Assembly (NCBI GenBank): GCA_045123995.1
Contig: JBGVKY010000026.1
Coordinates: forward strand, 73,600-137,599
DNA from: Clostridia bacterium
Lineage (GTDB): Bacteria; Bacillota; Clostridia; CAKSNL01; HGM11501
Reading direction: 5' to 3'
Length of the DNA: 64,000 nt
The position numbers were made by a program, and so were the translations under genes. Positions 6,239 through 40,473 of the stretch are shown one piece after another. Each line of letters starts with the position of its first letter. Position 1 is the stretch's first letter. The notes beneath the pieces are model-generated. The model did not search any database and was not told where the DNA came from. It saw only the letters and a program-made list of their open reading frames with translations.

Positions 6239-6300
6239 GCATAAAAATCTTACCTTCTGCATATATAGTTAAAGACTTAACAAATGTGGGAGGTAAGAAA

Positions 6301-6915
6301 ATGGCAAATGAGAACAACATCGTAAAACTTGAAGGAACCATGACAGAAGAACCGGAATTAAGCCATAGAGTTTACGGCGAGGGATTTTATAAGACTGTCT
6401 TATCAGTTCCTAGATTATCAGAGTCTCTGGATTTGATTCCTGTAACAGTATCAGAAAGGCTATTGGCAGGGAATTTTGCCGAGGTCGGCGGTAAATATTA
6501 TATAGAGGGAGAGTTTCGGTCTTATAATAATTATTCTGACGAAGGAAGCAAGCTTAAGCTTACGGTTTTTGCAAAAACGTTCTCAGAGGCTTTTCCAGAA
6601 GATAATAATGAACCTAACGACATATTTTTAGATGGTTATTTGTGCAAGGAACCTACATACAGACAAACACCTTTCGGAAGAGAAATTGCCGATATGCTGC
6701 TGGCGGTAAACAGAGCCTATGGTAAATCAGATTATATTCCGCTTATCGCATGGAGCAGAAATGCCAGATTTTGTTCTACATTGCCTGTGGGAACTCATCT
6801 TAGGGTTTACGGAAGAATTCAGTCAAGACAGTACCAAAAGAAACTGGAGGAAGAAGTTTTAACAAAAACCGCATACGAAGTATCCGTATCGAAACTCGAA
6901 ATAGCAGAAGATTAA
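6301..6915 (+). CDS. SSB-like protein with two tandem OB-fold-like halves (putative single-stranded nucleic-acid-binding protein). It has no acidic C-terminal tail
   Basis: ATG at 6301 is preceded by RBS GGGAGG (6288-6293). Two segments resemble SSB OB-fold starts (NIVKLEGTMTEEPEL... and NDIFLDGYLCKEPTYRQTPFGREIADMLLAVNR). Confidence 0.4.
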   Translation: MANENNIVKLEGTMTEEPELSHRVYGEGFYKTVLSVPRLSESLDLIPVTVSERLLAGNFAEVGGKYYIEGEFRSYNNYSDEGSKLKLTVFAKTFSEAFPEDNNEPNDIFLDGYLCKEPTYRQTPFGREIADMLLAVNRAYGKSDYIPLIAWSRNARFCSTLPVGTHLRVYGRIQSRQYQKKLEEEVLTKTAYEVSVSKLEIAED

Positions 6916-6958
6916 AAAAGAGGATGTAAAAAACTTGGTTTTTTACATCCTCTTTTTT
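6916..6958. terminator. Bidirectional rho-independent terminator
   Basis: Perfect hairpin AAAAAGAGGATGTAAAAAA-CTTGG-TTTTTTACATCCTCTTTTT flanked by A and T runs. Confidence 0.85.
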
Positions 6959-7097
6959 ATGATGGAGGTAACTGTTCAGGCGTTGTCCCGATTTTAGGAG
7001 TAGCAGTCCCCTCGTTGGTATAGTTGTTATCACGGGCAATTTTATTTATAGGAGGTGTTGTGCGACCGTGCTTTTTGGGTAATTTCTTTTTAGACAT
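6957..7097 (-). CDS. Small hypothetical protein (46 aa, MSKKKLPKKHGRTTPPINKIARDNNYTNEGTATPKIGTTPEQLPPS), basic and Pro/Thr rich
   Basis: Strong RBS GAGAGGAGAAAC 8 nt upstream of the ATG on the minus strand. The ORF ends at the bidirectional terminator. It is absent from the ORF track (shorter than 60 aa). Confidence 0.35.
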   Translation of the reverse strand: MSKKKLPKKHGRTTPPINKIARDNNYTNEGTATPKIGTTPEQLPPS

Positions 7098-7221
7098 AAG
7101 TTTCTCCTCTCAGGGATTTATTTTTATTTTATTTTTTGCGGGTTTTCGAGGTTTTATTCCCATAGTATAAAATTCCAAGCTATGGCAAAAATAAACATAA
7201 AACCTATAAAGGGAGATTTTT

Positions 7222-8805
7222 ATGTTTTTATCTAAAATTTTTACTTTTACTCCGCCTTCAGAAGAAGACGATTTTGTCATACTAGGGACAGGTTCTTCCA
7301 TAAAGGAAAAAGAAGACATAAAAGTTTCTTCTTGCCTTAAAGAAAATATGGACTATCTTGATAGTGTTTTCAAAAAAGATAAATCCTATGATGTAAAATC
7401 AAGAGAGTTTTTTATAAAAATGGGGAGATTCAAGGTCAATGCCGCCATATATTTCATTGACGGACTGGTTTCTAATACCAGCGTAAATGATGCTATTTTA
7501 ACACCCTTAATGATTGAATCGGAAAAAATAAAAGAAAAGGATTACGATAGCGTTTTTAACTCACTGGTGCCCCAGAATCAGGTTAAAAAATCGGAAGATA
7601 TGAAAGATATAATAGAAGAAATATGCTATGGAACATGCGCACTTTTCATTGACGGTTATAGTGAGGCGATATTGCCTCAGGTAATAGGCTGGGAAAAAAG
7701 AGGTGTAGACGAACCTAAAACTGAACCTGCCATTTTTGGTCCCAACCAGGCATTTAATGAAACTTTGAAGGTAAATACCTCCATGATGAGAAAAATGATC
7801 CGCTCTCCCGAGCTGGTTATTGAAAATATAACCGTAGGGGAGGTTGCTAAATGTAACTGTGCCGTTTTATATATGGAGAATATAACAAATCAGTCATTAG
7901 TAAAAGAAGTGAAAAAACGGATAGAAGGGCTTAAAGTCGACCACATTATAAGCTCGGGAGAGCTTATGCAGTTTATAGAAAACAACAGTTTCATAACGCT
8001 ACCGCAGATTATATCCACAGAAAGGCCTGACAGATGTGTGAAAAGCATTATGTCCGGAAGGGTAGTGGTATTGGTGGATAATTCTCCTCTGGCACTTATC
8101 ATGCCGGCAACTGTTTTTGAACTTACAGAATCGGCAGAAGACGTATATTTAAGGCCTGCATATGCACTTTTGGTAAAAAGCATAAGATATCTTGGGATTT
8201 TACTTTCTATCTACCTTCCTGGTATTTATATAGCTGCAATAACGTATCATACCACGATTTTTCCCACGGGAATGTTAACCACTATAATGAGGGCTGGAAG
8301 AAAAGTCCCCTTCGATTCGGTGACAGAGCTTGTAGTAATGGTTATAGCGTTTGAAATTGTTAGGGAAGCAAGTTCCAGAGTTCCGGGATTTTTGGGGTCA
8401 AGCCTCGGCATAATAGGGCCCTTGGTTTTAGGACAGGCTAGTATAAGTGCCAATATAGTAAGTCCGGTCATGCTTATTGTTTTTTCCATAGCAACCATAG
8501 GTTCTTTTGTTACCCCTAATTTTTCAATGGCGTTTTCGGGCAGAGTATTAAATATAATCTATATAATTCTTGGCAGCACGGGAGGATTTTTAGGGATAGC
8601 CGTTGGAATTTTCTGCCAAATGATGCTGTGGCATGAAACTAAATCTTTTGGCGTAAATATGATTTTACCCTTTTCCGAGAAGCAAAGCTTAATTCCTGAG
8701 CCTCTAAAGGTAACGCCTATATGGAAGCATGAAACAAGGCCGGGTTACCTCAAAACAAAAAGAATTAAGGAACAGGCTCATATAAGCAGACCTTGGAAGA
8801 AATGA
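7222..8805 (+). CDS. Spore germinant receptor, GerA-family A subunit
   Basis: GerA-family core with C-terminal TM helices (FIDGLVSNTSVNDAILTPLM...). RBS AAGGGAG is present. Confidence 0.85.
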   Translation: MFLSKIFTFTPPSEEDDFVILGTGSSIKEKEDIKVSSCLKENMDYLDSVFKKDKSYDVKSREFFIKMGRFKVNAAIYFIDGLVSNTSVNDAILTPLMIESEKIKEKDYDSVFNSLVPQNQVKKSEDMKDIIEEICYGTCALFIDGYSEAILPQVIGWEKRGVDEPKTEPAIFGPNQAFNETLKVNTSMMRKMIRSPELVIENITVGEVAKCNCAVLYMENITNQSLVKEVKKRIEGLKVDHIISSGELMQFIENNSFITLPQIISTERPDRCVKSIMSGRVVVLVDNSPLALIMPATVFELTESAEDVYLRPAYALLVKSIRYLGILLSIYLPGIYIAAITYHTTIFPTGMLTTIMRAGRKVPFDSVTELVVMVIAFEIVREASSRVPGFLGSSLGIIGPLVLGQASISANIVSPVMLIVFSIATIGSFVTPNFSMAFSGRVLNIIYIILGSTGGFLGIAVGIFCQMMLWHETKSFGVNMILPFSEKQSLIPEPLKVTPIWKHETRPGYLKTKRIKEQAHISRPWKK

Positions 8806-8809
8806 GGGG

Positions 8810-9859
8810 TTGATTTTGAAAATAAAAAATAAAACCTTGCTATTTGCAACGGTTAACTTTGTAACTGTAAAAATATTTACTTTTACAAGTCAAAGTATTA
8901 TTGATGCAGGCCAAAACAGTGCTTGGATTATGGTTATATTGAATACTTTTATAAACGCTTTTTTGTTTTATATTATATATCGGCTTTTTTTGAGAAGCGG
9001 AAAGAAAGATATTTTTTCCATCATGACGCCTTTTTTAAGGAAGACTTTTTCTGTTTTGGTATTTTCATACTTTATTTTTACCGCGGGAATTACCCTAAGG
9101 CTTTTAATTCAGGGAGTAATAAGGAACTTTATGCCCGAATCTCCGTCGCTATTTATTTCTTCTTTTTTTATAATTGCAATAATTTATGGAGCCACAAAGG
9201 GGATAAATTCAAATCTTTCCCTTTCGTTAGTTATAGCACCATTACTGGCCTTTACCATAATTGTTTCTGTGGTAATGCTTCCTTATTATGATTTTACCAA
9301 TTTATTTCCGATTTTAGGGGAGAATAATTTTTATATAAAATCTATTTATGCATTTAACTATTTTTCTGATTTTTTGATATTTATACTTTTGATGCCTTAT
9401 ATTGAAAATAAAGGAAACTTCCTTAAAACTGGGCTTTGGGCTATATTTGTTTCCGGTGCGGTGTGCCTTTTGGTAGTCCTTTGCCAGATTTTATCAATCC
9501 CTTTGGAGAAAGAGGTTTTTTCGCCTTTTTACTATATGGTTACGTTTTTATCAGGAAGCAGAAGCCCTATAAATTTTGTGAAAATATTCAAGCTTTTATT
9601 TCTTTTTAATTTTCTTTTGTATTTTTCCACAGCAACAGCTCTTGCAACGTATACATTGAAAAGAGGGTTTTCAATAAAATATGAAAAAAAGCTTGTGGGA
9701 GTATGCGCACTTTTGATTTTACTGACAGAAGAGGTTTTGCAGGGCTCTTGTGTTTTTCTGGATGTGTATACTGTATTTTATAAGTATTCCTTTATTATCT
9801 TTCCTTTGATTCCGTTGCTTTCTTATGCCTTTACTAAAAAGAAGGGGATTGAAAAATGA
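8810..9859 (+). CDS. Spore germinant receptor B subunit (APC-superfamily-like integral membrane protein)
   Basis: About 10 TM helices. It is coupled to the A subunit. TTG start at 8810 or 8816 after GAGGGG. Confidence 0.8.
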   Translation: MILKIKNKTLLFATVNFVTVKIFTFTSQSIIDAGQNSAWIMVILNTFINAFLFYIIYRLFLRSGKKDIFSIMTPFLRKTFSVLVFSYFIFTAGITLRLLIQGVIRNFMPESPSLFISSFFIIAIIYGATKGINSNLSLSLVIAPLLAFTIIVSVVMLPYYDFTNLFPILGENNFYIKSIYAFNYFSDFLIFILLMPYIENKGNFLKTGLWAIFVSGAVCLLVVLCQILSIPLEKEVFSPFYYMVTFLSGSRSPINFVKIFKLLFLFNFLLYFSTATALATYTLKRGFSIKYEKKLVGVCALLILLTEEVLQGSCVFLDVYTVFYKYSFIIFPLIPLLSYAFTKKKGIEK

Positions 9860-11082
9860 AATATTATATAGTTTTTATTATATTGCTTTCAATTTTCCTG
9901 GTATCTACCGGCGGTTTCTATGATGCAAAAGAGATTTCTGATACCGTTTCGGTTGTAGCTATGGCTATAGATAAAGGAGAAAATATGCCACTTAGGGTCT
10001 CGTTTCATATTGAAAGTGCAGGAGGAAAGGAAGGGGAAGAAGAAAAGAAAGGCGGAGAAGAAAAAGAAGGTGAGAACAAAAAAAGCAAAGATGTTGTTGC
10101 TGTAGAAGCTCCTACTATTTTATCAGCATTCGCCAGAGCCAACAGTGTAAACAGCTTGGATTTAAATGTTGACAACGTGAAAATGGTGATTTTTTCTAAA
10201 GAACTGGCTGAAGAAGGTATATTTTTGCCCGTTAAAGAGCTGGCTTCTTCAACGGAGTTTCAGAACAATGCCTATCTTTCAGTAGCAAAAGGGAAAGCAG
10301 AGGATGTACTAAATAATGTTACTCCTGAGGACGAGGAGTATCTTTCTGTTTACTATGAAAAGATAATTTTTAGACATTACAGTTCTGCTACCAGGAATTT
10401 TCTTTTGAGCGAGACTTATTTCTCTCTTATAGAGGAAGATGGTGGAGATTTTCTTCTTCCTTTGGTATCAGTAAGAAAAAAAGACGGCTTCGAAAACTCA
10501 TTTAGTGACGATGTAAGTTCGAACCTGACAGCAGGGATGATACCTAAAGAATCTAAGCATAAAATCGAATTTTTAGGTGGTGCGGTGTTTTCGGAAGGGA
10601 AGCTTAAAGGATACCTTACGGAAAGCGAGATGCTTTCAGCAGGCTTTATAATGAGTTTTTTTGCTACAAGAGATATAAGTGTTGAATATCCTGAAAAATC
10701 GGGGAATTTTGTAACATTGAATTTAGAAGAACACTATAAAAGTAAAATGGATATAGAGGCAAAAGATAAAATGAAAACTTCGGTAAAGCTATACTTGAAA
10801 GGAACGTACGAATTTATTCCCGAGGGAAATTTCGATACATTTAGAAAAGACTTTCCCGAATACCTCAAAAAAACAATAAAAAAAGATGCCGAGGAAGTTA
10901 TAAAGAAATGTATTTTTAATTACAATGCAGATATTTTCGGTATAAAAAAAGAAGCTAAAAAAGAATTTTTAACCAAAGCGAAAATGGATGAATATAAGAT
11001 TCCTGTAAAAATTAAAAGTGCAGAGTTTAATGTAGAGGTGAAGCTCAAAATGACAGAAAACGGGAGGTTTGCCGAAAGATGA
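9856..11082 (+). CDS. Spore germinant receptor C subunit (GerAC-like). It has an N-terminal signal-anchor without a lipobox Cys and a low-complexity E/K-rich insert
   Basis: GerC-like size and position. Overlapping start (ATGA). MKYYIVFIILLSIFLVSTGG has no Cys. Insert EGEEEKKGGEEKEGENKK. Confidence 0.7.
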   Translation: MKYYIVFIILLSIFLVSTGGFYDAKEISDTVSVVAMAIDKGENMPLRVSFHIESAGGKEGEEEKKGGEEKEGENKKSKDVVAVEAPTILSAFARANSVNSLDLNVDNVKMVIFSKELAEEGIFLPVKELASSTEFQNNAYLSVAKGKAEDVLNNVTPEDEEYLSVYYEKIIFRHYSSATRNFLLSETYFSLIEEDGGDFLLPLVSVRKKDGFENSFSDDVSSNLTAGMIPKESKHKIEFLGGAVFSEGKLKGYLTESEMLSAGFIMSFFATRDISVEYPEKSGNFVTLNLEEHYKSKMDIEAKDKMKTSVKLYLKGTYEFIPEGNFDTFRKDFPEYLKKTIKKDAEEVIKKCIFNYNADIFGIKKEAKKEFLTKAKMDEYKIPVKIKSAEFNVEVKLKMTENGRFAER

Positions 11083-11258
11083 TTATATTTGTTAAAATAG
11101 CTGAAATTCTTTTTATGGCACTTACCCTGATACGTACTGCGGTATACGGAATATGGACAATTAAAAACCGAAATGTTTCCGGTGGCATTTTTATTATTTT
11201 TTTGTGTATAACCTCAATAGCACTTTTTGTCATGACCCTTATAACCGATTACAGATAA
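11079..11258 (+). CDS. 59-aa two-TM small membrane protein, candidate germinant-receptor D subunit
   Basis: ATG overlaps the gerC stop (ATGA). Sequence MIIFVKIAEILFMALTLIRTAVYGIWTIKNRNVSGGIFIIFLCITSIALFVMTLITDYR has two hydrophobic helices. Not in the ORF track. Confidence 0.5.
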   Translation: MIIFVKIAEILFMALTLIRTAVYGIWTIKNRNVSGGIFIIFLCITSIALFVMTLITDYR

Positions 11259-11291
11259 TTCTTTACAAAAAAACAAAAATGTATTATAATT

Positions 11292-11330
11292 TATGCGGAG
11301 AGATTAGAAGATTTCTCCGCACAATTTTTG
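11292..11330 (+). terminator. Hairpin plus T-run, likely terminator of the ger operon (or leader element of ruvX)
   Basis: TGCGGAGA-gattagaagatt-TCTCCGCA followed by CAATTTTTG. Confidence 0.5.
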
Positions 11331-11347
11331 TGAAAAAGGGGATTTTT

Positions 11348-12325: not shown

Positions 12326-13093
12326 ATGTCTGAGTTTTTATTTTTGGGAACAGGAGCAGCAGACTGGGATATTTCTGACAAAAAGAATTTTGTAAGAAGG
12401 CATTCTGCAGCTTTGGTAAATTATAATCTTATGATAGATTGTGGAAGACATATATTTGATTTTGAAGAGAGTTTTGGAAAAGAAAATCTCTATGATAACA
12501 TCAAAGATGTAATTATAACACATCCTCATGGAGATCATGTTTCTAAAGATTCAATACTTAAGCTGTCGAAAAAAAGAAAGTTTAATTTGTGGTGCGACAG
12601 AAAAATTGCAGAACTCGTGGGAAAGCATCCTAATATTGAAATCCATATATTAAATGCGTTCAAAGAAGAAAAAATCGGCGAATATAAAGTAATTCCCCTT
12701 ATGGCGAACCACAGCGTTGTGACCAATGAAAATTCGACAGCTTTTCACTACATAATAGAAACTTATGATGGGAAAAAGATTTTTTACGGACTTGACGGAG
12801 CTTGGTTTTTAAGACCATCGTGGGAGGAAATGAAGAAACATAAGTTTGACATCATGGTATTCGACTGCACAGTGGGAGAGGGGGAGGACTGGAGACTTTT
12901 TGAGCATAACACCATCCCTATGCTGAGGCTTATGACAAATGAGATAAAAAGACAGAATATGTTGTCGGAAAATGGTAAACTTATAGCTTCTCATATGGCA
13001 AAAAGCTTACACGGCACTCATGAAGAAACCGAAAGTATACTCGGGGAGTTTGATATGACAGCGGCTTACGACGGGCTATTACTTTCGTTTTAA
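12326..13093 (+). CDS. MBL-fold metallo-hydrolase
   Basis: HxHxDH motif ITHPHGDHV. RBS GAAAGGAG. Confidence 0.8.
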   Translation: MSEFLFLGTGAADWDISDKKNFVRRHSAALVNYNLMIDCGRHIFDFEESFGKENLYDNIKDVIITHPHGDHVSKDSILKLSKKRKFNLWCDRKIAELVGKHPNIEIHILNAFKEEKIGEYKVIPLMANHSVVTNENSTAFHYIIETYDGKKIFYGLDGAWFLRPSWEEMKKHKFDIMVFDCTVGEGEDWRLFEHNTIPMLRLMTNEIKRQNMLSENGKLIASHMAKSLHGTHEETESILGEFDMTAAYDGLLLSF

Positions 13094-36756: not shown

Positions 36757-38421
36757 ATGAATAACGATAAATTTAACAGAGGAGTATTATCCTGGCTATT
36801 TAATAAAATAAAAACGCAGAAACTCGGCATAATTTTTTTAACTATTATAGGTGTTGCAGTTTCGCTTTTATCTGTTTACAGAGCTTTCTGTTACAGAGAG
36901 ATAATTGATTTAATCAAGCCTGTTTCTGAAGGGCTTAAGCAGGACGAAATTACAAAATGGATTATTACTTTTATCATCATTGTAATTTTATCTATTATTT
37001 TAAGTCTTTTATCCAATTACATCAAAGAATATTCTCTTATAACACTACTTAATAAAATCAGAAAAGAAATAATCACTTCAGTTTATAAAAAAGATTACGG
37101 TAAAATCTCGGAATTTCATTCAGGAGATATATTAAACAGAGTATTCAGTGACGCAAGAATTGTATCCAATAACGCAATAAGCTTGGCACCTTCATTTTTC
37201 GCCTTAACTGTAAGGCTTTTGGGCTCTTTTGTATTTATGTATATGATTAGTCCCGGAATATCTTTGATTTTGCTTTTTGCAGGGCTTATATTAAGCGGAC
37301 TTTCTCTACTTTTTAAGAAGAAGGCTAAAAAATTACATAAAGAAACACAAAAAGCCGAAGGCGATGTAAGAGCGGTATTTCAGGAGCAAACCACAGGACT
37401 TCTGATGATAAAAGTTTTTTCTGCGGAAAAGCAAATGGAAGAAAAGGCAGATAGTGTACAGTCTATCTATAAAAAGAAGCATCTTCATCAGAAGCTTTTT
37501 TCATGCCTTTTGGGATTTATTCATCTCGCTGCTTATAATTTCGCACTGGTAATTGTTTTCTTATACAGCATTTATGCTATAATGAACGGAGCTATGGGAT
37601 ACGGTTCGTTGACAGCCATGCTGCAACTGGCAAACAGCATACAGAGCTCATTGAATGAAATAGGAGGAATATTGCCCAGAATCTATTCCACAACAGCATC
37701 CGGTGAAAGAATTATTGAAATCCTTGAACTGCAAGAGGAAAAAGAGCAGAATCTTCCAAATAACGATTTTGAAAAAATCACTTTTGATAAGGTTTGTTTC
37801 AATTACGGAAGAAAAGACATACTTAAAGATTTATCTTTTTCTTTTAAGAAGAATGAGATTATCGGAATACAAGGTCCATCCGGCATAGGTAAAAGTACCA
37901 TTCTTCTGCTTTTGCTTGGCATTTATAATCCTTTATCAGGAAAAATCTCTCTTATAAATAAAGACACAGAAACAGAAATATGCAAGGATACAAGAAAGCT
38001 TTTTTCTTATATTCCGCAGGGAAATTTGCTTTTTTCCGGAACAATAAAAGAAAACATTCTTTTTGCAAAAGAAAAAGCCACTGAAAAGGAGATTAAAAAT
38101 GCTCTTGCGGCATCCTGCGCAGACGATTTTATAAAGGATTTACCATTAGGAACAGATACTTTGATAGGGGAGGGAGGCTTAGGTCTTTCTGAAGGGCAGC
38201 AACAAAGAATAGCCATTGCAAGAGCCATTGTTTCTGATTCTGAAATTATGCTTTTTGACGAAGCTACAAGTGCTCTTGATGAAGCTACAGAAAGCAAGCT
38301 CATAGAAAATCTCAAAGGAATAAATAAGACTTGCGTTATTGTAACTCACAGAAAGTCAGCCTTGAGCATTTGCGATTCCTCATATATCTTAACCGAAGAT
38401 GGCTTTGACAAAGTAAAATAA
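36757..38421 (+). CDS. ABC exporter, fused permease-ATPase (ABCB type)
   Basis: 6-TM N-terminal domain. Walker A GPSGIGKST, LSEGQQQRIAIARA and Walker B LFDEATSALD. Confidence 0.85.
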   Translation: MNNDKFNRGVLSWLFNKIKTQKLGIIFLTIIGVAVSLLSVYRAFCYREIIDLIKPVSEGLKQDEITKWIITFIIIVILSIILSLLSNYIKEYSLITLLNKIRKEIITSVYKKDYGKISEFHSGDILNRVFSDARIVSNNAISLAPSFFALTVRLLGSFVFMYMISPGISLILLFAGLILSGLSLLFKKKAKKLHKETQKAEGDVRAVFQEQTTGLLMIKVFSAEKQMEEKADSVQSIYKKKHLHQKLFSCLLGFIHLAAYNFALVIVFLYSIYAIMNGAMGYGSLTAMLQLANSIQSSLNEIGGILPRIYSTTASGERIIEILELQEEKEQNLPNNDFEKITFDKVCFNYGRKDILKDLSFSFKKNEIIGIQGPSGIGKSTILLLLLGIYNPLSGKISLINKDTETEICKDTRKLFSYIPQGNLLFSGTIKENILFAKEKATEKEIKNALAASCADDFIKDLPLGTDTLIGEGGLGLSEGQQQRIAIARAIVSDSEIMLFDEATSALDEATESKLIENLKGINKTCVIVTHRKSALSICDSSYILTEDGFDKVK

Positions 38422-38445
38422 TCATTATGAGTTAGGGGACAGTTT

Positions 38446-39390
38446 ATGAAAATAGTTGTACTTGATGCGAAAACTTTAGGAGACGATATATCTTTAGATA
38501 TATTAAAAAAAGCGGGGGAGTGTACCTTTTATAAAGAAACTGCCCCGTCAGAAATTCGCGAAAGAATTATTGATGCGGATGTTCTTGTGTTAAATAAATT
38601 GAAGCTCAACGAGGGCAATCTTGCTGATGCTGAAAACTTAAAGCTTATTTGTGTAACTGCCACAGGCTATGATAATATTGATATTGAATACTGTAAAAAA
38701 AGAAATATAGCCGTTTCCAATGTGGTGGGATATTCTTCTCATTCCGTGGCTCAAAACACTTTAGCACAGGTTTTGGCACTTTACACGAATCTTTTTGCTT
38801 ATAACAACTTTGTAAGAAGCGGAGATTATACTAAAAGCGGTGTTGCAAACAGACTTACCCCTGTATACCACGAGCTTTTCGGGAAAACCTGGGGAATAAT
38901 AGGATACGGAAACATAGGAAAAGAGGTAGGGGAGGCAGCTAAAGCTTTAGGATGTAACATCCTTTATACAAGACATAAAAATGATGGTATTTCCGTGGAT
39001 TTGAAAACTTTGTGTGAAAAATCTGATATCATAACAATACACACCCCATTAAATGAAGATACAAGAGCTATTATAAACGAAGAAAAGATTTTCATTATGA
39101 AGGATGGAGTTTTAATAGTAAATGCAGCCAGAGGGGCTGTTACTGACGAAAAAGCCATTGTAAAAGGAATAAAAAGCGGGAAAATTGGATTTTTCGGATC
39201 AGATGTTTATTCCGAAGAGCCTTTTAGCAAAGAGCATCCCTTTAATGAAATAAAAGATTATCCTAATGTGCTTTTAACTCCGCACATGGCCTGGGGATCT
39301 TTTGAAGCCAGAATACGTTGCATTGAAGAAATATATGAAAATATAAAGGCTTTTAACGAGGGAAAGTTAAGAAACCGGGTGGATTTATAA
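38446..39390 (+). CDS. D-isomer-specific 2-hydroxyacid dehydrogenase (glycerate/hydroxypyruvate reductase family)
   Basis: GIIGYGNIGKEV NAD-binding motif and catalytic R/E/H region. Confidence 0.8.
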   Translation: MKIVVLDAKTLGDDISLDILKKAGECTFYKETAPSEIRERIIDADVLVLNKLKLNEGNLADAENLKLICVTATGYDNIDIEYCKKRNIAVSNVVGYSSHSVAQNTLAQVLALYTNLFAYNNFVRSGDYTKSGVANRLTPVYHELFGKTWGIIGYGNIGKEVGEAAKALGCNILYTRHKNDGISVDLKTLCEKSDIITIHTPLNEDTRAIINEEKIFIMKDGVLIVNAARGAVTDEKAIVKGIKSGKIGFFGSDVYSEEPFSKEHPFNEIKDYPNVLLTPHMAWGSFEARIRCIEEIYENIKAFNEGKLRNRVDL

Positions 39391-39427
39391 AAAACAGCTA
39401 TTACGGAAAACGTAATAGCTGTTTTTT
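39390..39427. terminator. Bidirectional terminator
   Basis: AAAAACAGCTATTACG-GAAAA-CGTAATAGCTGTTTTT. Confidence 0.85.
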
Positions 39428-40473
39428 TACTTTTCTTCGGGAAATTCACGGCTTCGCATAATTTCTTTTTTCGCTTTCGCACTGTATTGTGCATAGAATT
39501 TATGTGTTACCTCAATGTTTTTGTGACCCATAAGTTCTGCGACCATTTTAATATCGACTCCTTCTTCCAAAAGAGTGCATGCAAAGGTTCTTCTGAGTGC
39601 GTGAGGTCTTGTTTTATCCTTATTTGTTATTCCTGCCATAAGACAGTAGGTTTTAAGATTGTGTTCAACGCTGGAAATGGTAAGTCTTTCGCCGTTTCTT
39701 GATACAAAAAGAGCATCTGTCTTATAATTTTGTTCGTTTCGCCATTCTATGTAGCTTAAAAGTTCATTTTCAACCTGAACAGGCATAAAAATCTCATCTT
39801 CATTTCCGCCTTTTCTGGTAACAGTAAAGGAAGAAGTTTCGAAATCCACATCAGAAACGTCTAAATTAACCAATTCGCTAACACGAACACCTGTTCCTAA
39901 ATAGGTGAGATACAGCGCTATATCGCGTTTTTTTCTGTTTAGGTATTCGGTGAGGAGGCGGCCTGTAAAATAGTTTTCACCGTTCAATATTACATCCATA
40001 AGACGCATGGTTTCCTGAATAGTCAGTGGTTTTTTTATTTTCTGAACCAGTTTATTCATATCAATCTTAAGAGTAACATTTTGGGAAATTTTATCTGTTT
40101 TATAAAGATAAGAAAACAAGCTCCTTAAAGAAGACATTTTACGGTTTATCCCGAAAGAAGAATTTCTGTGGGTTCTTGTGTAGCTTTCTCCGTCAGATGT
40201 AACGTAGGAGAGTGTGTACTGCTTTAAATAAGATTTATATTCAAGCAGGTCATCTACAGAAATTTTATCCATATCAGCTTCAGAGAAAGACTCCAATGAA
40301 TCATAATTAAAACGACCTGATTCTATTAAAAAATTTAAGAAGATACGAACGTCAAGAGCGAGAGCAAGCTGTGTATTTATTGATTCGCCGTCGTAATAGT
40401 AGTCAATGAATCTGAATACAAAATCAGGTAATTCTGAAAGACGGCTTCTTAATTTAGTTTGTTTATCTATCAT
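39427..40473 (-). CDS. Tyrosine site-specific recombinase (Xer-like, phage-integrase family)
   Basis: C-terminal catalytic motifs HALRRTFA, LMGH and Y in KFYAQYS. N-terminal SAM-like core-binding domain. Confidence 0.8.
   Translation of the reverse strand: MIDKQTKLRSRLSELPDFVFRFIDYYYDGESINTQLALALDVRIFLNFLIESGRFNYDSLESFSEADMDKISVDDLLEYKSYLKQYTLSYVTSDGESYTRTHRNSSFGINRKMSSLRSLFSYLYKTDKISQNVTLKIDMNKLVQKIKKPLTIQETMRLMDVILNGENYFTGRLLTEYLNRKKRDIALYLTYLGTGVRVSELVNLDVSDVDFETSSFTVTRKGGNEDEIFMPVQVENELLSYIEWRNEQNYKTDALFVSRNGERLTISSVEHNLKTYCLMAGITNKDKTRPHALRRTFACTLLEEGVDIKMVAELMGHKNIEVTHKFYAQYSAKAKKEIMRSREFPEEK

What the first reader, a model, noticed from the sequence alone, without database searches (positions are those of the whole stretch)
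7222..11258. GerA-family germinant receptor operon with a coupled 59-aa two-TM D-subunit candidate and a non-lipoprotein C subunit
A, B and C genes overlap or abut, and a fourth ORF starts with an ATGA overlap on the gerC stop. It encodes a 59-aa protein with two predicted TM helices, the reported architecture of germinant-receptor D subunits. The C subunit lacks the usual lipobox cysteine and instead has an uncleavable-looking signal anchor. It also carries an E/K-rich low-complexity insert near the N-terminus. A candidate forespore-type -10 (CATAGTA) sits about 70 nt upstream of gerA.
Basis: partly seen in the sequence, partly recalled or inferred. Interest (0 to 1): 0.55.

Follow-up and report, generated by a model that had tools for sequence, protein, structure and literature searches.

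The report
Spore germinant receptor operon with fourth subunit
This is an ordinary spore nutrient-receptor (GerA-type) operon from an uncultured gut Clostridia bacterium, but its fourth gene proves to be a real, conserved, un-annotated small membrane protein that follows gerC in every related locus examined, and its C subunit belongs to a clade that has lost the usual lipid-anchor cysteine.

Summary
Window 7222-11258 carries gerA (527 aa), gerB (347 aa, TTG 8816), gerC (408 aa) and a 59-aa two-helix ORF whose ATG overlaps the gerC stop.

The small ORF is a real gene. A 52-64 aa homologue lies directly after gerC in all 32 GerC-related loci fetched, and in 3 of 3 loci reached independently through the small protein. 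dN/dS is 0.14-0.44. A profile search finds 77 cluster representatives, none with a name or Pfam/NCBIfam family.

It meets the positional and architectural definition of a germinant-receptor D subunit. It shows no similarity to the characterised GerUD, and its basic loop predicts the opposite topology.

GerC has no lipobox under any start. The site L-x-G-C is T-G-G-F/Y in 11 of 11 clade members, while all distant relatives keep the Cys. Whether the signal peptide is cleaved cannot be told.

The proposed CATAGTA -10 is not conserved. The conserved promoter is GTATA-N14-GGCAAAAATA (7165-7193), a perfect sigma-F consensus match and unique in the window.

Verdict: new member of a known kind, with modest variant features. 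Interest is moderate to low.

The parts
7165..7193 (+). Forespore-type promoter: -35 GTATA (7165-7169), 14-nt spacer, -10 GGCAAAAATA (7184-7193). It ends 28 nt before the gerA ATG.
   Evidence: It matches the published B. subtilis sigma-F consensus GTATA / GGNAANAMTR exactly, and the sigma-G consensus GNATA / CAWAMTA at 6 of 7 positions in the -10 (PMC3416734 Table 4). It is the only match in 64 kb on both strands, against 0.04 expected. With position 7 of the -10 relaxed to R, it is present upstream of gerA in L001, L003-5 and L008-12.
7222..8805 (+). gerA: germinant receptor A subunit, 527 aa.
   Evidence: PF03323 GerA with E 1.7e-145, covering profile positions 3-464 of 466. It is 70-86% identical in clade loci and 35-43% in distant loci.
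8816..9859 (+). gerB: germinant receptor B subunit (APC-type permease fold), 347 aa. It starts at TTG 8816; an alternative TTG lies at 8810.
   Evidence: PF03845 Spore_permease with E 8e-21 and TIGR00912. The public record calls the start at 8816. The GAGGGG ribosome-binding site is at 8804-8809.
9856..11082 (+). gerC: germinant receptor C subunit, 408 aa. It has an N-terminal hydrophobic helix (residues 2-18), T-G-G-F in place of the lipobox L-x-G-C, and a disordered E/K-rich loop (residues ~55-79, nt ~10018-10092).
   Evidence: PF25198 plus PF05504. The AF2 model's only significant PDB match is GerBC 3N54, at E 4e-14. The lipobox replacement is conserved in 11 of 11 clade members, while the distant homologues keep the Cys. 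dN/dS is 0.06-0.13.
11079..11258 (+). D-like gene: 59-aa two-TM protein with a short basic loop (IKNRNVSGG). It is translationally coupled to gerC through an ATGA overlap.
   Evidence: The gene is conserved in position and sequence in all related loci. The family motif is [ST]-[YF]-[GA]-x-[WYF]-x-[WL]-[KR]-x-x-N-x-x-G-[AG]. dN/dS is 0.14-0.44. The AF2 model is a helical hairpin with pLDDT 83. There is no Pfam or NCBIfam hit.
11294..11331 (+). A 12-bp GC-containing hairpin followed by CAATTTTTGT: the likely end of the ger transcript. It overlaps the presumed ruvX promoter and leader.
   Evidence: It is the top terminator-like site in the scan. A hairpin at the same place is conserved in clade loci, but the T-run is not present in all of them.
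6957..7097 (-). Divergent 46-aa hydrophilic ORF that travels with the ger operon in the close clade. It may be a small forespore/spore protein and is not shown to be part of the receptor.
   Evidence: It is 74-96% identical in L003-L012. It is retained next to gerA in L006, where the genes further upstream differ. Sigma-G/F-like promoter elements lie on the minus strand, with exact GGATA-N17/18-CATACTA in L005 and L011. No family hit was found.

Best explanation
The region is one forespore-transcribed operon, gerA-gerB-gerC-D, encoding a GerA-type nutrient germinant receptor of the spore inner membrane in an uncultured Clostridia bacterium.

Inferred from family knowledge:
- The A subunit forms the channel and transducer.
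- The B subunit is the APC-fold ligand-binding permease.
- The C subunit is the peripheral outer-face subunit.

The fourth gene encodes a 59-aa helical-hairpin membrane protein made in fixed stoichiometric coupling with GerC through the ATGA overlap. It most likely acts as a D-type accessory subunit that sits in the membrane beside the A/B/C complex and tunes its assembly, stability or germinant sensitivity, as shown for Bacillus D proteins.

It belongs to a distinct, un-annotated sequence family found in anaerobic Bacillota. Its most conserved part is the end of TM1 plus a short basic loop. The positive-inside rule places that loop on the spore-core side, the reverse of GerUD.

In this clade GerC can no longer be lipidated, because the lipobox L-x-G-C has become T-G-G-F/Y. 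GerC must therefore be held at the membrane either by its uncleaved N-terminal helix or, after signal peptidase I cleavage, by protein contacts alone.

Shown here: gene identities, conservation, synteny, purifying selection, loss of the lipobox, and the promoter match.

Inferred: forespore expression, membrane location, topology, and accessory function.
For: - Family assignments for A, B and C come. The GerC fold matches GerBC 3N54.
- The overlaps and abutments are read directly from the sequence.
- The consensus sigma-F/G promoter is unique in the window and conserved across the clade (consensus from PMC3416734).
- A terminator-like hairpin appears only after the small ORF.
- The D-like gene follows gerC in 7 clade loci, in all 32 loci found with GerC, and in 3 of 3 loci found independently through D-like proteins. 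The gene order A-B-C-D holds throughout.
- Across the fetched loci and the 64-kb window, the family HMM's only significant hits (E <= 1e-10) are one ORF per clostridial ger locus, always directly after gerC.
- dN/dS is below 1.
- 77 representatives reach E < 1e-3 in 1.84 billion proteins, nearly all 52-64 aa long.
- The D-subunit definition and functional data come from PMC4661057.
- The lipobox loss is conserved across the clade, and GerC is under strong constraint.
Against: - There is no experimental evidence for any member of this small-protein family.
- It shows no detectable similarity to GerUD (hhalign probability 0.09%).
- No member was found in the five Bacillus, Priestia or C. acetobutylicum plasmid ger loci checked.
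- Homology to the short B. megaterium GerKD or to B. subtilis YfkS could not be tested, because their sequences were not obtainable with these tools.
- D evolves faster than A, B and C (46% identity against 50-71% at the same divergence).
- The promoter assignment rests on a consensus match only.
- The TIGR02887 score for GerC (150.1) is below NCBI's cutoff of 163.25.
Confidence: 0.75

Rival explanations
1. The small ORF is a genuine conserved membrane protein that is co-transcribed with gerABC but does not work with the receptor. It could be, for example, a general spore-membrane protein or a membrane-insertion helper that is merely linked to gerC.
For: It shows no similarity to the functionally tested GerUD. 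It is constrained less strongly than GerC. GerUD function tolerates almost any TM helix (PMC4661057), so specific partnership is hard to infer from sequence.
Against: Linkage to gerC is strict in 35 of 35 independent loci across very divergent lineages, where GerC identity is 22-81% and the flanking genes differ. The overlap with gerC supports translational coupling in this clade. The loop motif is conserved.
Confidence: 0.15
2. The small ORF is a chance or non-translated reading frame in the gerC-ruvX spacer.
For: It is short. Only an identical copy was found by the single-sequence word-seeded search. It has no family annotation.
Against: An intact frame of 52-64 codons is kept in more than 40 loci. 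Profile E-values are 1e-10 to 1e-24, although most of these sequences were used to build the model. Independent members were retrieved from a 1.84-billion-protein library. dN/dS is 0.14-0.44. A ribosome-binding site and start-stop coupling are present.
Confidence: 0.02
3. Loss of the lipobox means the C subunit, and hence the receptor, is decaying or non-functional in this clade.
For: In B. subtilis, lipidation of some C subunits is needed for receptor function (own knowledge: studies of gerF/lgt and the GerAC Cys mutant). The TIGR02887 score for GerC is below its cutoff.
Against: All four genes are intact in every clade member. GerC dN/dS is 0.06-0.13. The replacement motif LVSTGG[FY]YDA is itself invariant across members that are 55-82% identical. 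[quoted passage not shown]
Confidence: 0.05

Closest known systems
Bacillus germinant-receptor D subunits, GerUD type (B. megaterium GerUD, GerK3D, BMQ_3896; B. subtilis GerKD)
   Same: Both are small proteins with two TM helices joined by a loop, encoded in or next to a gerABC operon. Both are presumed to be forespore-expressed inner-membrane proteins that modulate the linked receptor (PMC4661057).
   Different: - Size: 59 aa here against ~76 aa.
- Loop: about 8-10 residues and strongly basic here, against about 20 residues.
- Topology: the charge distribution predicts the loop on the core side with termini outside. GerUD's loop was shown to face outward, with a basic C-tail inside.
- Similarity: none detectable (hhalign probability 0.09%).
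- Position: gerUD lies upstream of gerUA and divergent from it. Here the gene is the last in the operon and overlaps gerC.
- Conservation: the loop region here is the most conserved part, whereas GerUD's loop is dispensable.
B. megaterium GerKD (short D-subunit type)
   Same: The published TM map (TM1 4-22, loop 23-30, TM2 31-50; supplement of PMC4661057) is nearly the same architecture as this family, which has TM1 ~2-24, a loop of ~8-10 residues and TM2 ~33-55. GerKD is likewise reported as not alignable with GerUD.
   Different: Sequence relationship is untested, because the GerKD sequence could not be obtained with these tools. No named member of the family found here comes from Bacillales.
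Canonical GerC lipoproteins (B. subtilis GerBC, PDB 3N54; GerAC; B. megaterium GerUC)
   Same: They share the two Pfam domains and the fold. They share an N-terminal signal-like helix and a low-complexity loop after the second beta-strand.
   Different: The lipobox Cys and the -3 Leu are replaced (T-G-G-F/Y), so no diacylglycerol anchor is possible. The loop is E/K-rich instead of Gly-rich. Reference C subunits checked here carry LSSC, LTSC or LTGC.
GerA-type ABC germinant receptor operons of Clostridia (e.g. C. botulinum / C. sporogenes gerX, C. perfringens gerK)
   Same: The same three subunit families are present, and the order A-B-C matches the related clostridial loci fetched here. A forespore-type promoter is expected.
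   Different: No D subunit is present in the C. perfringens GerK orthologue (PMC12433478). In the papers I could search, I found no description of a conserved D-like family in Clostridia.

Membership tests
GerA-family germinant receptor, A subunit (PF03323) | Full-length match to the GerA profile above the gathering score | tested here: met
   485.6 bits against a cutoff of 27, covering profile positions 3-464 of 466.
Germinant receptor B subunit (PF03845 / TIGR00912) | Match to the Spore_permease profile above the gathering score | tested here: met
   Pfam gives 74.6 bits against a cutoff of 23.4. The TIGR00912 score of 70.3 is below its cutoff of 139.55, so this is a divergent member.
Germinant receptor C subunit (Ger(x)C; PF25198 + PF05504) | Both GerAC domains present and a GerBC-like fold | tested here: met
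   Pfam scores are 93.6 and 66.1 bits, both above cutoff. Foldseek against the PDB returns only GerBC 3N54, at E 4e-14 and probability 1.00.
Germinant receptor C subunit (Ger(x)C; PF25198 + PF05504) | N-terminal lipoprotein signal peptide with a lipobox Cys. This is typical and is described as a property of C subunits (PMC13170314, PMC4161481). | tested here: not met
   There is no Cys before about residue 352 and no upstream start. The homologous site is T-G-G-F/Y in all 11 clade members, against L-x-G-C in the distant homologues.
Germinant-receptor D-subunit proteins (functional class, PMC4661057) | Encoded within or adjacent to a GR operon | tested here: met
   It is the last gene of the operon and overlaps the gerC stop. 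The same position is seen in 35 of 35 related loci.
Germinant-receptor D-subunit proteins (functional class, PMC4661057) | Small protein with two TM helices, a connecting loop, and short N- and C-termini | tested here: met
   Hydropathy gives segments 1-19 and 32-57. The AF2 hairpin has H2-29 and H33-58.
Germinant-receptor D-subunit proteins (functional class, PMC4661057) | [quoted passage not shown] | not testable with these tools
   Only indirect support is available. A sigma-F/G consensus promoter lies upstream of gerA, and no terminator-like site with a long stem (>= 8 pairs) lies before the small ORF; the best site, a 12-pair hairpin, comes after it.
Germinant-receptor D-subunit proteins (functional class, PMC4661057) | Modulates germination through the associated receptor only | not testable with these tools
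   This requires genetics in a sporulating carrier.
GerUD / GerKD(bs) sequence family | Alignable sequence similarity to GerUD | tested here: not met
   hhalign of the 32-sequence family alignment against GerUD (76 aa, from pBM700) gives probability 0.09%. The family HMM finds nothing in the pBM700 gerU locus or in four other plasmid ger loci.
B. megaterium GerKD / B. subtilis YfkS | Sequence similarity | not tested
Only the published TM coordinates of GerKDbm could be compared.
Sigma-F / sigma-G forespore promoters | Match to GTATA-N(14-16)-GGNAANAMTR (sigma-F) or GNATA-N(17-18)-CAWAMTA (sigma-G), placed upstream of the operon | tested here: met
The sigma-F match at 7165-7193 is exact and is the only one in 64 kb, against 0.04 expected. 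It is conserved in clade loci with one relaxed position.

The most novel reading that the evidence does not exclude
The small protein defines a previously undescribed fourth subunit that is obligate for a large subfamily of germinant receptors in anaerobic Bacillota. On this reading it has a conserved core-facing basic loop, giving a topology opposite to the Bacillus D subunit GerUD, and this loop contacts the cytoplasmic face of GerA or GerB. In the window's clade, GerC has exchanged its lipid anchor for a retained N-terminal helix that packs against this subunit; the clade-specific invariant Glu9 and Arg19 in TM1 of D may reflect that contact. Under this reading the protein is a structural component of the receptor rather than a dispensable modulator.
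Probability: 0.15. Interest if true: 0.55.

Novelty: new member of a known kind. Interest (0 to 1): 0.33.

Why it matters
Germinant receptors decide when spores of gut and environmental Firmicutes wake up. What D subunits do is still unknown, and the work I could find used Bacillus proteins that tolerate almost any sequence change.

The family found here offers a better handle on that question:
- It is tightly linked to gerC.
- It has a conserved loop motif.
- It occurs in cultivable Desulfotomaculum-group species and in many gut Clostridia MAGs.

It should also be given a family model so that these genes stop being annotated as 'hypothetical'.

The lipobox-less GerC clade is a natural experiment on whether the C subunit's lipid anchor is needed. 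None of this changes the basic picture of the receptor.

Tried and rejected
- A single-sequence word-seeded search with the 59-aa protein found only itself. This was a sensitivity limit, not absence; synteny and profile searches then recovered the family.
- Pfam and NCBIfam scans of six family members at E <= 10 gave only scattered chance-level hits. The best was DUF3953 at E 0.015 for one member. These were rejected as noise.
- tblastn of two family members against 72,556 plasmids found nothing at E <= 10.
A5 is biased toward the Desulfotomaculum-type members.
- The key D-subunit papers (Ramirez-Peralta 2013, Paredes-Sabja 2011) and two reviews are not held. I therefore could not check whether clostridial D genes of this family were already listed, and could not get the GerKD or YfkS sequences.
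- The AFDB fold library was unavailable. A two-helix hairpin would have been uninformative in any case.
- phmmer of GerC against PDB sequences gave nothing; the fold search was needed instead.
- CATAGTA was considered as a sigma-G -10 element, and CATAGTATA as a sigma-K/E -10 element. Both were rejected: neither has a matching -35, and neither is conserved.
- The hairpin at 11294-11321 was considered as a purely ger terminator. It is kept only as 'likely', because the conserved feature in relatives is a TGTATAAT box plus hairpin in front of ruvX, and several lack a T-run.


Full report
**Observation**

- gerA is 7222-8805.
- gerB starts at TTG 8810 or 8816 and ends at 9859. The public gene call for the identical contig uses 8816, giving 347 aa.
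- gerC is 9856-11082.
- A 59-codon ORF is at 11079-11258.

The gerB/gerC and gerC/small-ORF junctions are both ATGA overlaps, and gerA and gerB are 4-10 nt apart. The small ORF has a GGGAGG ribosome-binding site 11 nt upstream.

Pfam assigns the large products as follows:
- gerA: GerA, E 1.7e-145.
- gerB: Spore_permease, E 8e-21.
- gerC: Spore_GerAC_N plus Spore_GerAC.

NCBIfam agrees, although the B and C scores are below its trusted cutoffs, which marks them as divergent members. The AF2 model of GerC has one significant PDB neighbour, the GerBC crystal structure 3N54 (E 4e-14).

The window is identical to a contig of a Clostridia MAG, GCA_045595485.1.

**Is the small ORF real?**

A single-sequence search found only the identical protein. 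That search needs shared 5-residue words, so I looked at synteny instead.

GerC has a clade of relatives at 55-82% identity. Every contig of these that I fetched has a 56-59 codon ORF overlapping the gerC stop by 4 nt. These ORFs align without frame-breaking gaps at 38-61% identity.

A scan of one genome per species with the GerC alignment gave 32 loci. They come from Clostridia MAGs, Desulfotomaculum, Desulfoscipio, Desulfotruncus, Desulfallas and Peptococcaceae, with GerC identity down to 22%. In every one, a 52-64 aa two-helix ORF starts between -3 and +80 nt of the gerC stop. All of them share the motif [ST]-[YF]-[GA]-x-[WYF]-x-[WL]-[KR]-x-x-N-x-x-G-[AG] at the end of helix 1 and in the loop. 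The gene order is A-B-C-D throughout.

An HMM built from the family gives exactly one significant hit (E <= 1e-10) per clostridial ger locus, always at that position. It finds nothing else significant in the flanks or in the 64-kb window. Most of those sequences were used to build the model, so this result speaks to specificity rather than discovery.

Independent support comes from several directions:
- A word-seeded profile search returned 33 proteins, all 48-73 aa and all 'hypothetical', with no Pfam domain.
- An exhaustive profile search of 1.84 billion cluster representatives returned 77 at E < 1e-3, nearly all 52-64 aa.
- Three proteins found through the small-protein profile (P0109, P0046, P0037) each lie directly after gerA-gerB-gerC on their contigs.
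- Pairwise dN/dS is 0.14-0.44 for the small gene, against 0.06-0.13 for gerC. Synonymous sites are near saturation, so these values are rough.

The AF2 model is a helical hairpin, H2-29 and H33-58, at pLDDT 83. The ORF is therefore a real gene under purifying selection and strictly linked to gerC.

**Is it a D subunit?**

The published description of D subunits has four elements (PMC4661057):
- They are small.
- They have two TM helices joined by a loop of variable length.
- They are encoded within or adjacent to a GR operon.
- They are forespore-expressed and modulate the linked receptor.

The first three are met here. Expression and function cannot be tested with these tools.

I recovered the characterised GerUD (76 aa) from plasmid pBM700. 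Its length and TM positions match the paper. A profile comparison with the new family gives probability 0.09%. The family HMM finds no member in five Bacillus, Priestia or C. acetobutylicum plasmid ger loci.

That alone does not exclude membership of the functional class. The same paper's supplement states that B. megaterium GerKD has no discernible alignment with GerUD. Its TM map (4-22, loop 23-30, 31-50) is almost exactly the architecture seen here. I could not obtain the GerKD or YfkS sequences, so homology to the short type is untested.

One difference is worth noting. Across 116 family members the loop carries on average 3.0 Lys+Arg, against 0.4 in the N-terminal zone and 0.7 in the C-terminal zone. 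The positive-inside rule therefore puts the loop on the core side. GerUD's loop was shown to face outward, with a basic C-tail inside. The loop region is also the most conserved part of this family, whereas GerUD's loop is dispensable.

Named members all come from anaerobic Bacillota, and no Bacillales member was seen among those with names. Other D-like families probably exist. A second gerC in L047 is followed by a 51-aa two-TM ORF that the HMM does not match.

**The C subunit**

GerC has one Cys, near residue 352. The ORF cannot be extended upstream.

Anchoring the alignment on the conserved Y-D-A-[KR]-E-I shows the change directly. The lipobox L-[AT]-G-C of the distant homologues corresponds to T-G-G-F in the window and T-G-G-[FY] in all 11 clade members. 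Every one of the ~25 distant GerCs keeps L-x-G-C, as do the reference proteins GerUC, a C. acetobutylicum GerC and a B. thuringiensis GerC.

The loss is therefore a fixed, clade-wide trait in a protein under strong constraint. It is neither an error nor decay.

It is not unprecedented. Brunt et al. report the GCX lipobox in only some C. botulinum and C. sporogenes gerXC genes, and state that diacylglycerol addition does not appear essential (PMC4161481).

The hydrophobic region (~15 residues) is no longer than in the lipoprotein homologues. T-G-G|F also satisfies the -3/-1 rule for signal peptidase I. 'Uncleavable signal anchor' therefore remains one of two open possibilities.

The E/K-rich segment (residues ~55-79) is modelled as disordered. 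It sits where other GerCs have a Gly-rich loop.

**Promoter and transcript ends**

CATAGTA (7161-7167) has no GNATR-type -35 at 17-18 nt. In the orthologous loci only its last bases are conserved.

Those bases belong to a conserved GTATA, which is followed 14 nt later by GG(N)AAA(A/G)ATA. In the window this reads GTATA-N14-GGCAAAAATA (7165-7193). That is an exact match to the B. subtilis sigma-F consensus GTATA / GGNAANAMTR, and close to the sigma-G consensus GNATA / CAWAMTA (PMC3416734 Table 4).

The published pattern occurs once in the 64-kb window on either strand, against 0.04 expected. A one-position-relaxed version occurs once upstream of gerA in each clade locus. The relaxed version was derived after looking at the alignment; the exact-consensus test was not.

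Forespore expression is therefore supported, but through a different element from the one proposed.

The strongest terminator-like site of the region, a 12-bp hairpin plus T-run at 11294-11331, follows the small ORF. This is consistent with a four-gene transcript. In relatives, the conserved feature at this place is a TGTATAAT box plus hairpin ahead of ruvX.

**Verdict**

This is a GerA-type germinant receptor operon whose fourth gene is a genuine, conserved, un-annotated D-like membrane protein. Its C subunit belongs to a lipobox-less clade.

The promoter element, the cleavability claim and the novelty of the low-complexity loop need correction.

I file it as a new member of a known kind. It has modest variant features: a distinct D-like sequence family, a predicted inverted topology, and no lipid anchor on C. 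I set interest at about 0.33.

Noticed in passing
window 6957-7097 (-); L003 3101-3241, L004 3139-3279, L005 2192-2332, L006 3158-3298: A 46-aa hydrophilic ORF (MSKKKLPKKHGRTTPPINKIARDNNYTNEGTATPKIGTTPEQLPPS) is transcribed divergently from gerA. It is 74-96% identical across the clade, which is better conserved than GerB, GerC or D. It has no Pfam or NCBIfam hit. It stays next to gerA in L006, where the upstream genes differ. Sigma-G/F-type promoter elements lie on its strand, with exact GGATA-N17/18-CATACTA in L005 and L011. It may be a small spore protein linked to the receptor locus.
   Followed up: partly
window 11262-11331: A sigma-70-like promoter, TTTACA-17-TATAAT (11262-11290), sits immediately before the hairpin at 11294-11321, ahead of ruvX (11348). 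A TGTATAAT box plus GC hairpin is conserved at this spot in the clade loci. A transcript starting at this promoter would begin inside the 5' arm of the hairpin, so the hairpin could stop ger read-through without stopping ruvX transcripts. This is speculative.
   Followed up: partly
L013 6053-7093; L015 5598-6470: In two distant loci a second gerB-like gene follows the D-like gene, giving the order A-B-C-D-B'.
   Followed up: no
L047 9445-9600 (-) and 9192-9389 (-): A second gerC on this contig is followed by a 51-aa two-TM ORF with a basic loop (MILLVMFSMLAIVLLEVPRLIKNKLWRELGAFFFILTLAYALALAEMLDLF), and then by a 65-aa hydrophobic ORF. Neither matches the D-like family HMM. This suggests there are several unrelated families of small membrane proteins after gerC.
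   Followed up: no
L042 4692-4907 (C. acetobutylicum pSMBa): A 71-aa hydrophobic 'hypothetical protein' lies immediately upstream of gerA, on the same strand, in this plasmid ger locus. It could be another D-type candidate. It is not matched by the family HMM.
   Followed up: no
L013 (MAG labelled Ignavibacteriales); KKT77361.1 (MAG labelled Parcubacteria): A complete gerABC-D locus and a D-like protein occur in MAGs assigned to lineages that do not form spores. The most likely explanation is mis-binned Bacillota contigs.
   Followed up: no
window 6286-6915 (+): A 209-aa SSB paralogue matches NF004476 (PRK05813) over its full length. Pfam sees an SSB domain only in residues 111-205. It is conserved upstream of the ger locus in most clade members.
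   Followed up: no
window ~38000-40000: Cumulative GC skew rises steadily to about 38-40 kb and then falls. This points to a switch in the dominant coding or replication strand within the window.
   Followed up: no
window 12326-13093 (+): An MBL-fold hydrolase with a precomputed Pfam hit to Anti-Pycsar_Apyc1 (PF23023) lies three genes downstream of the ger operon. NCBIfam gives only weak PhnP and RNase Z-like matches.
   Followed up: no
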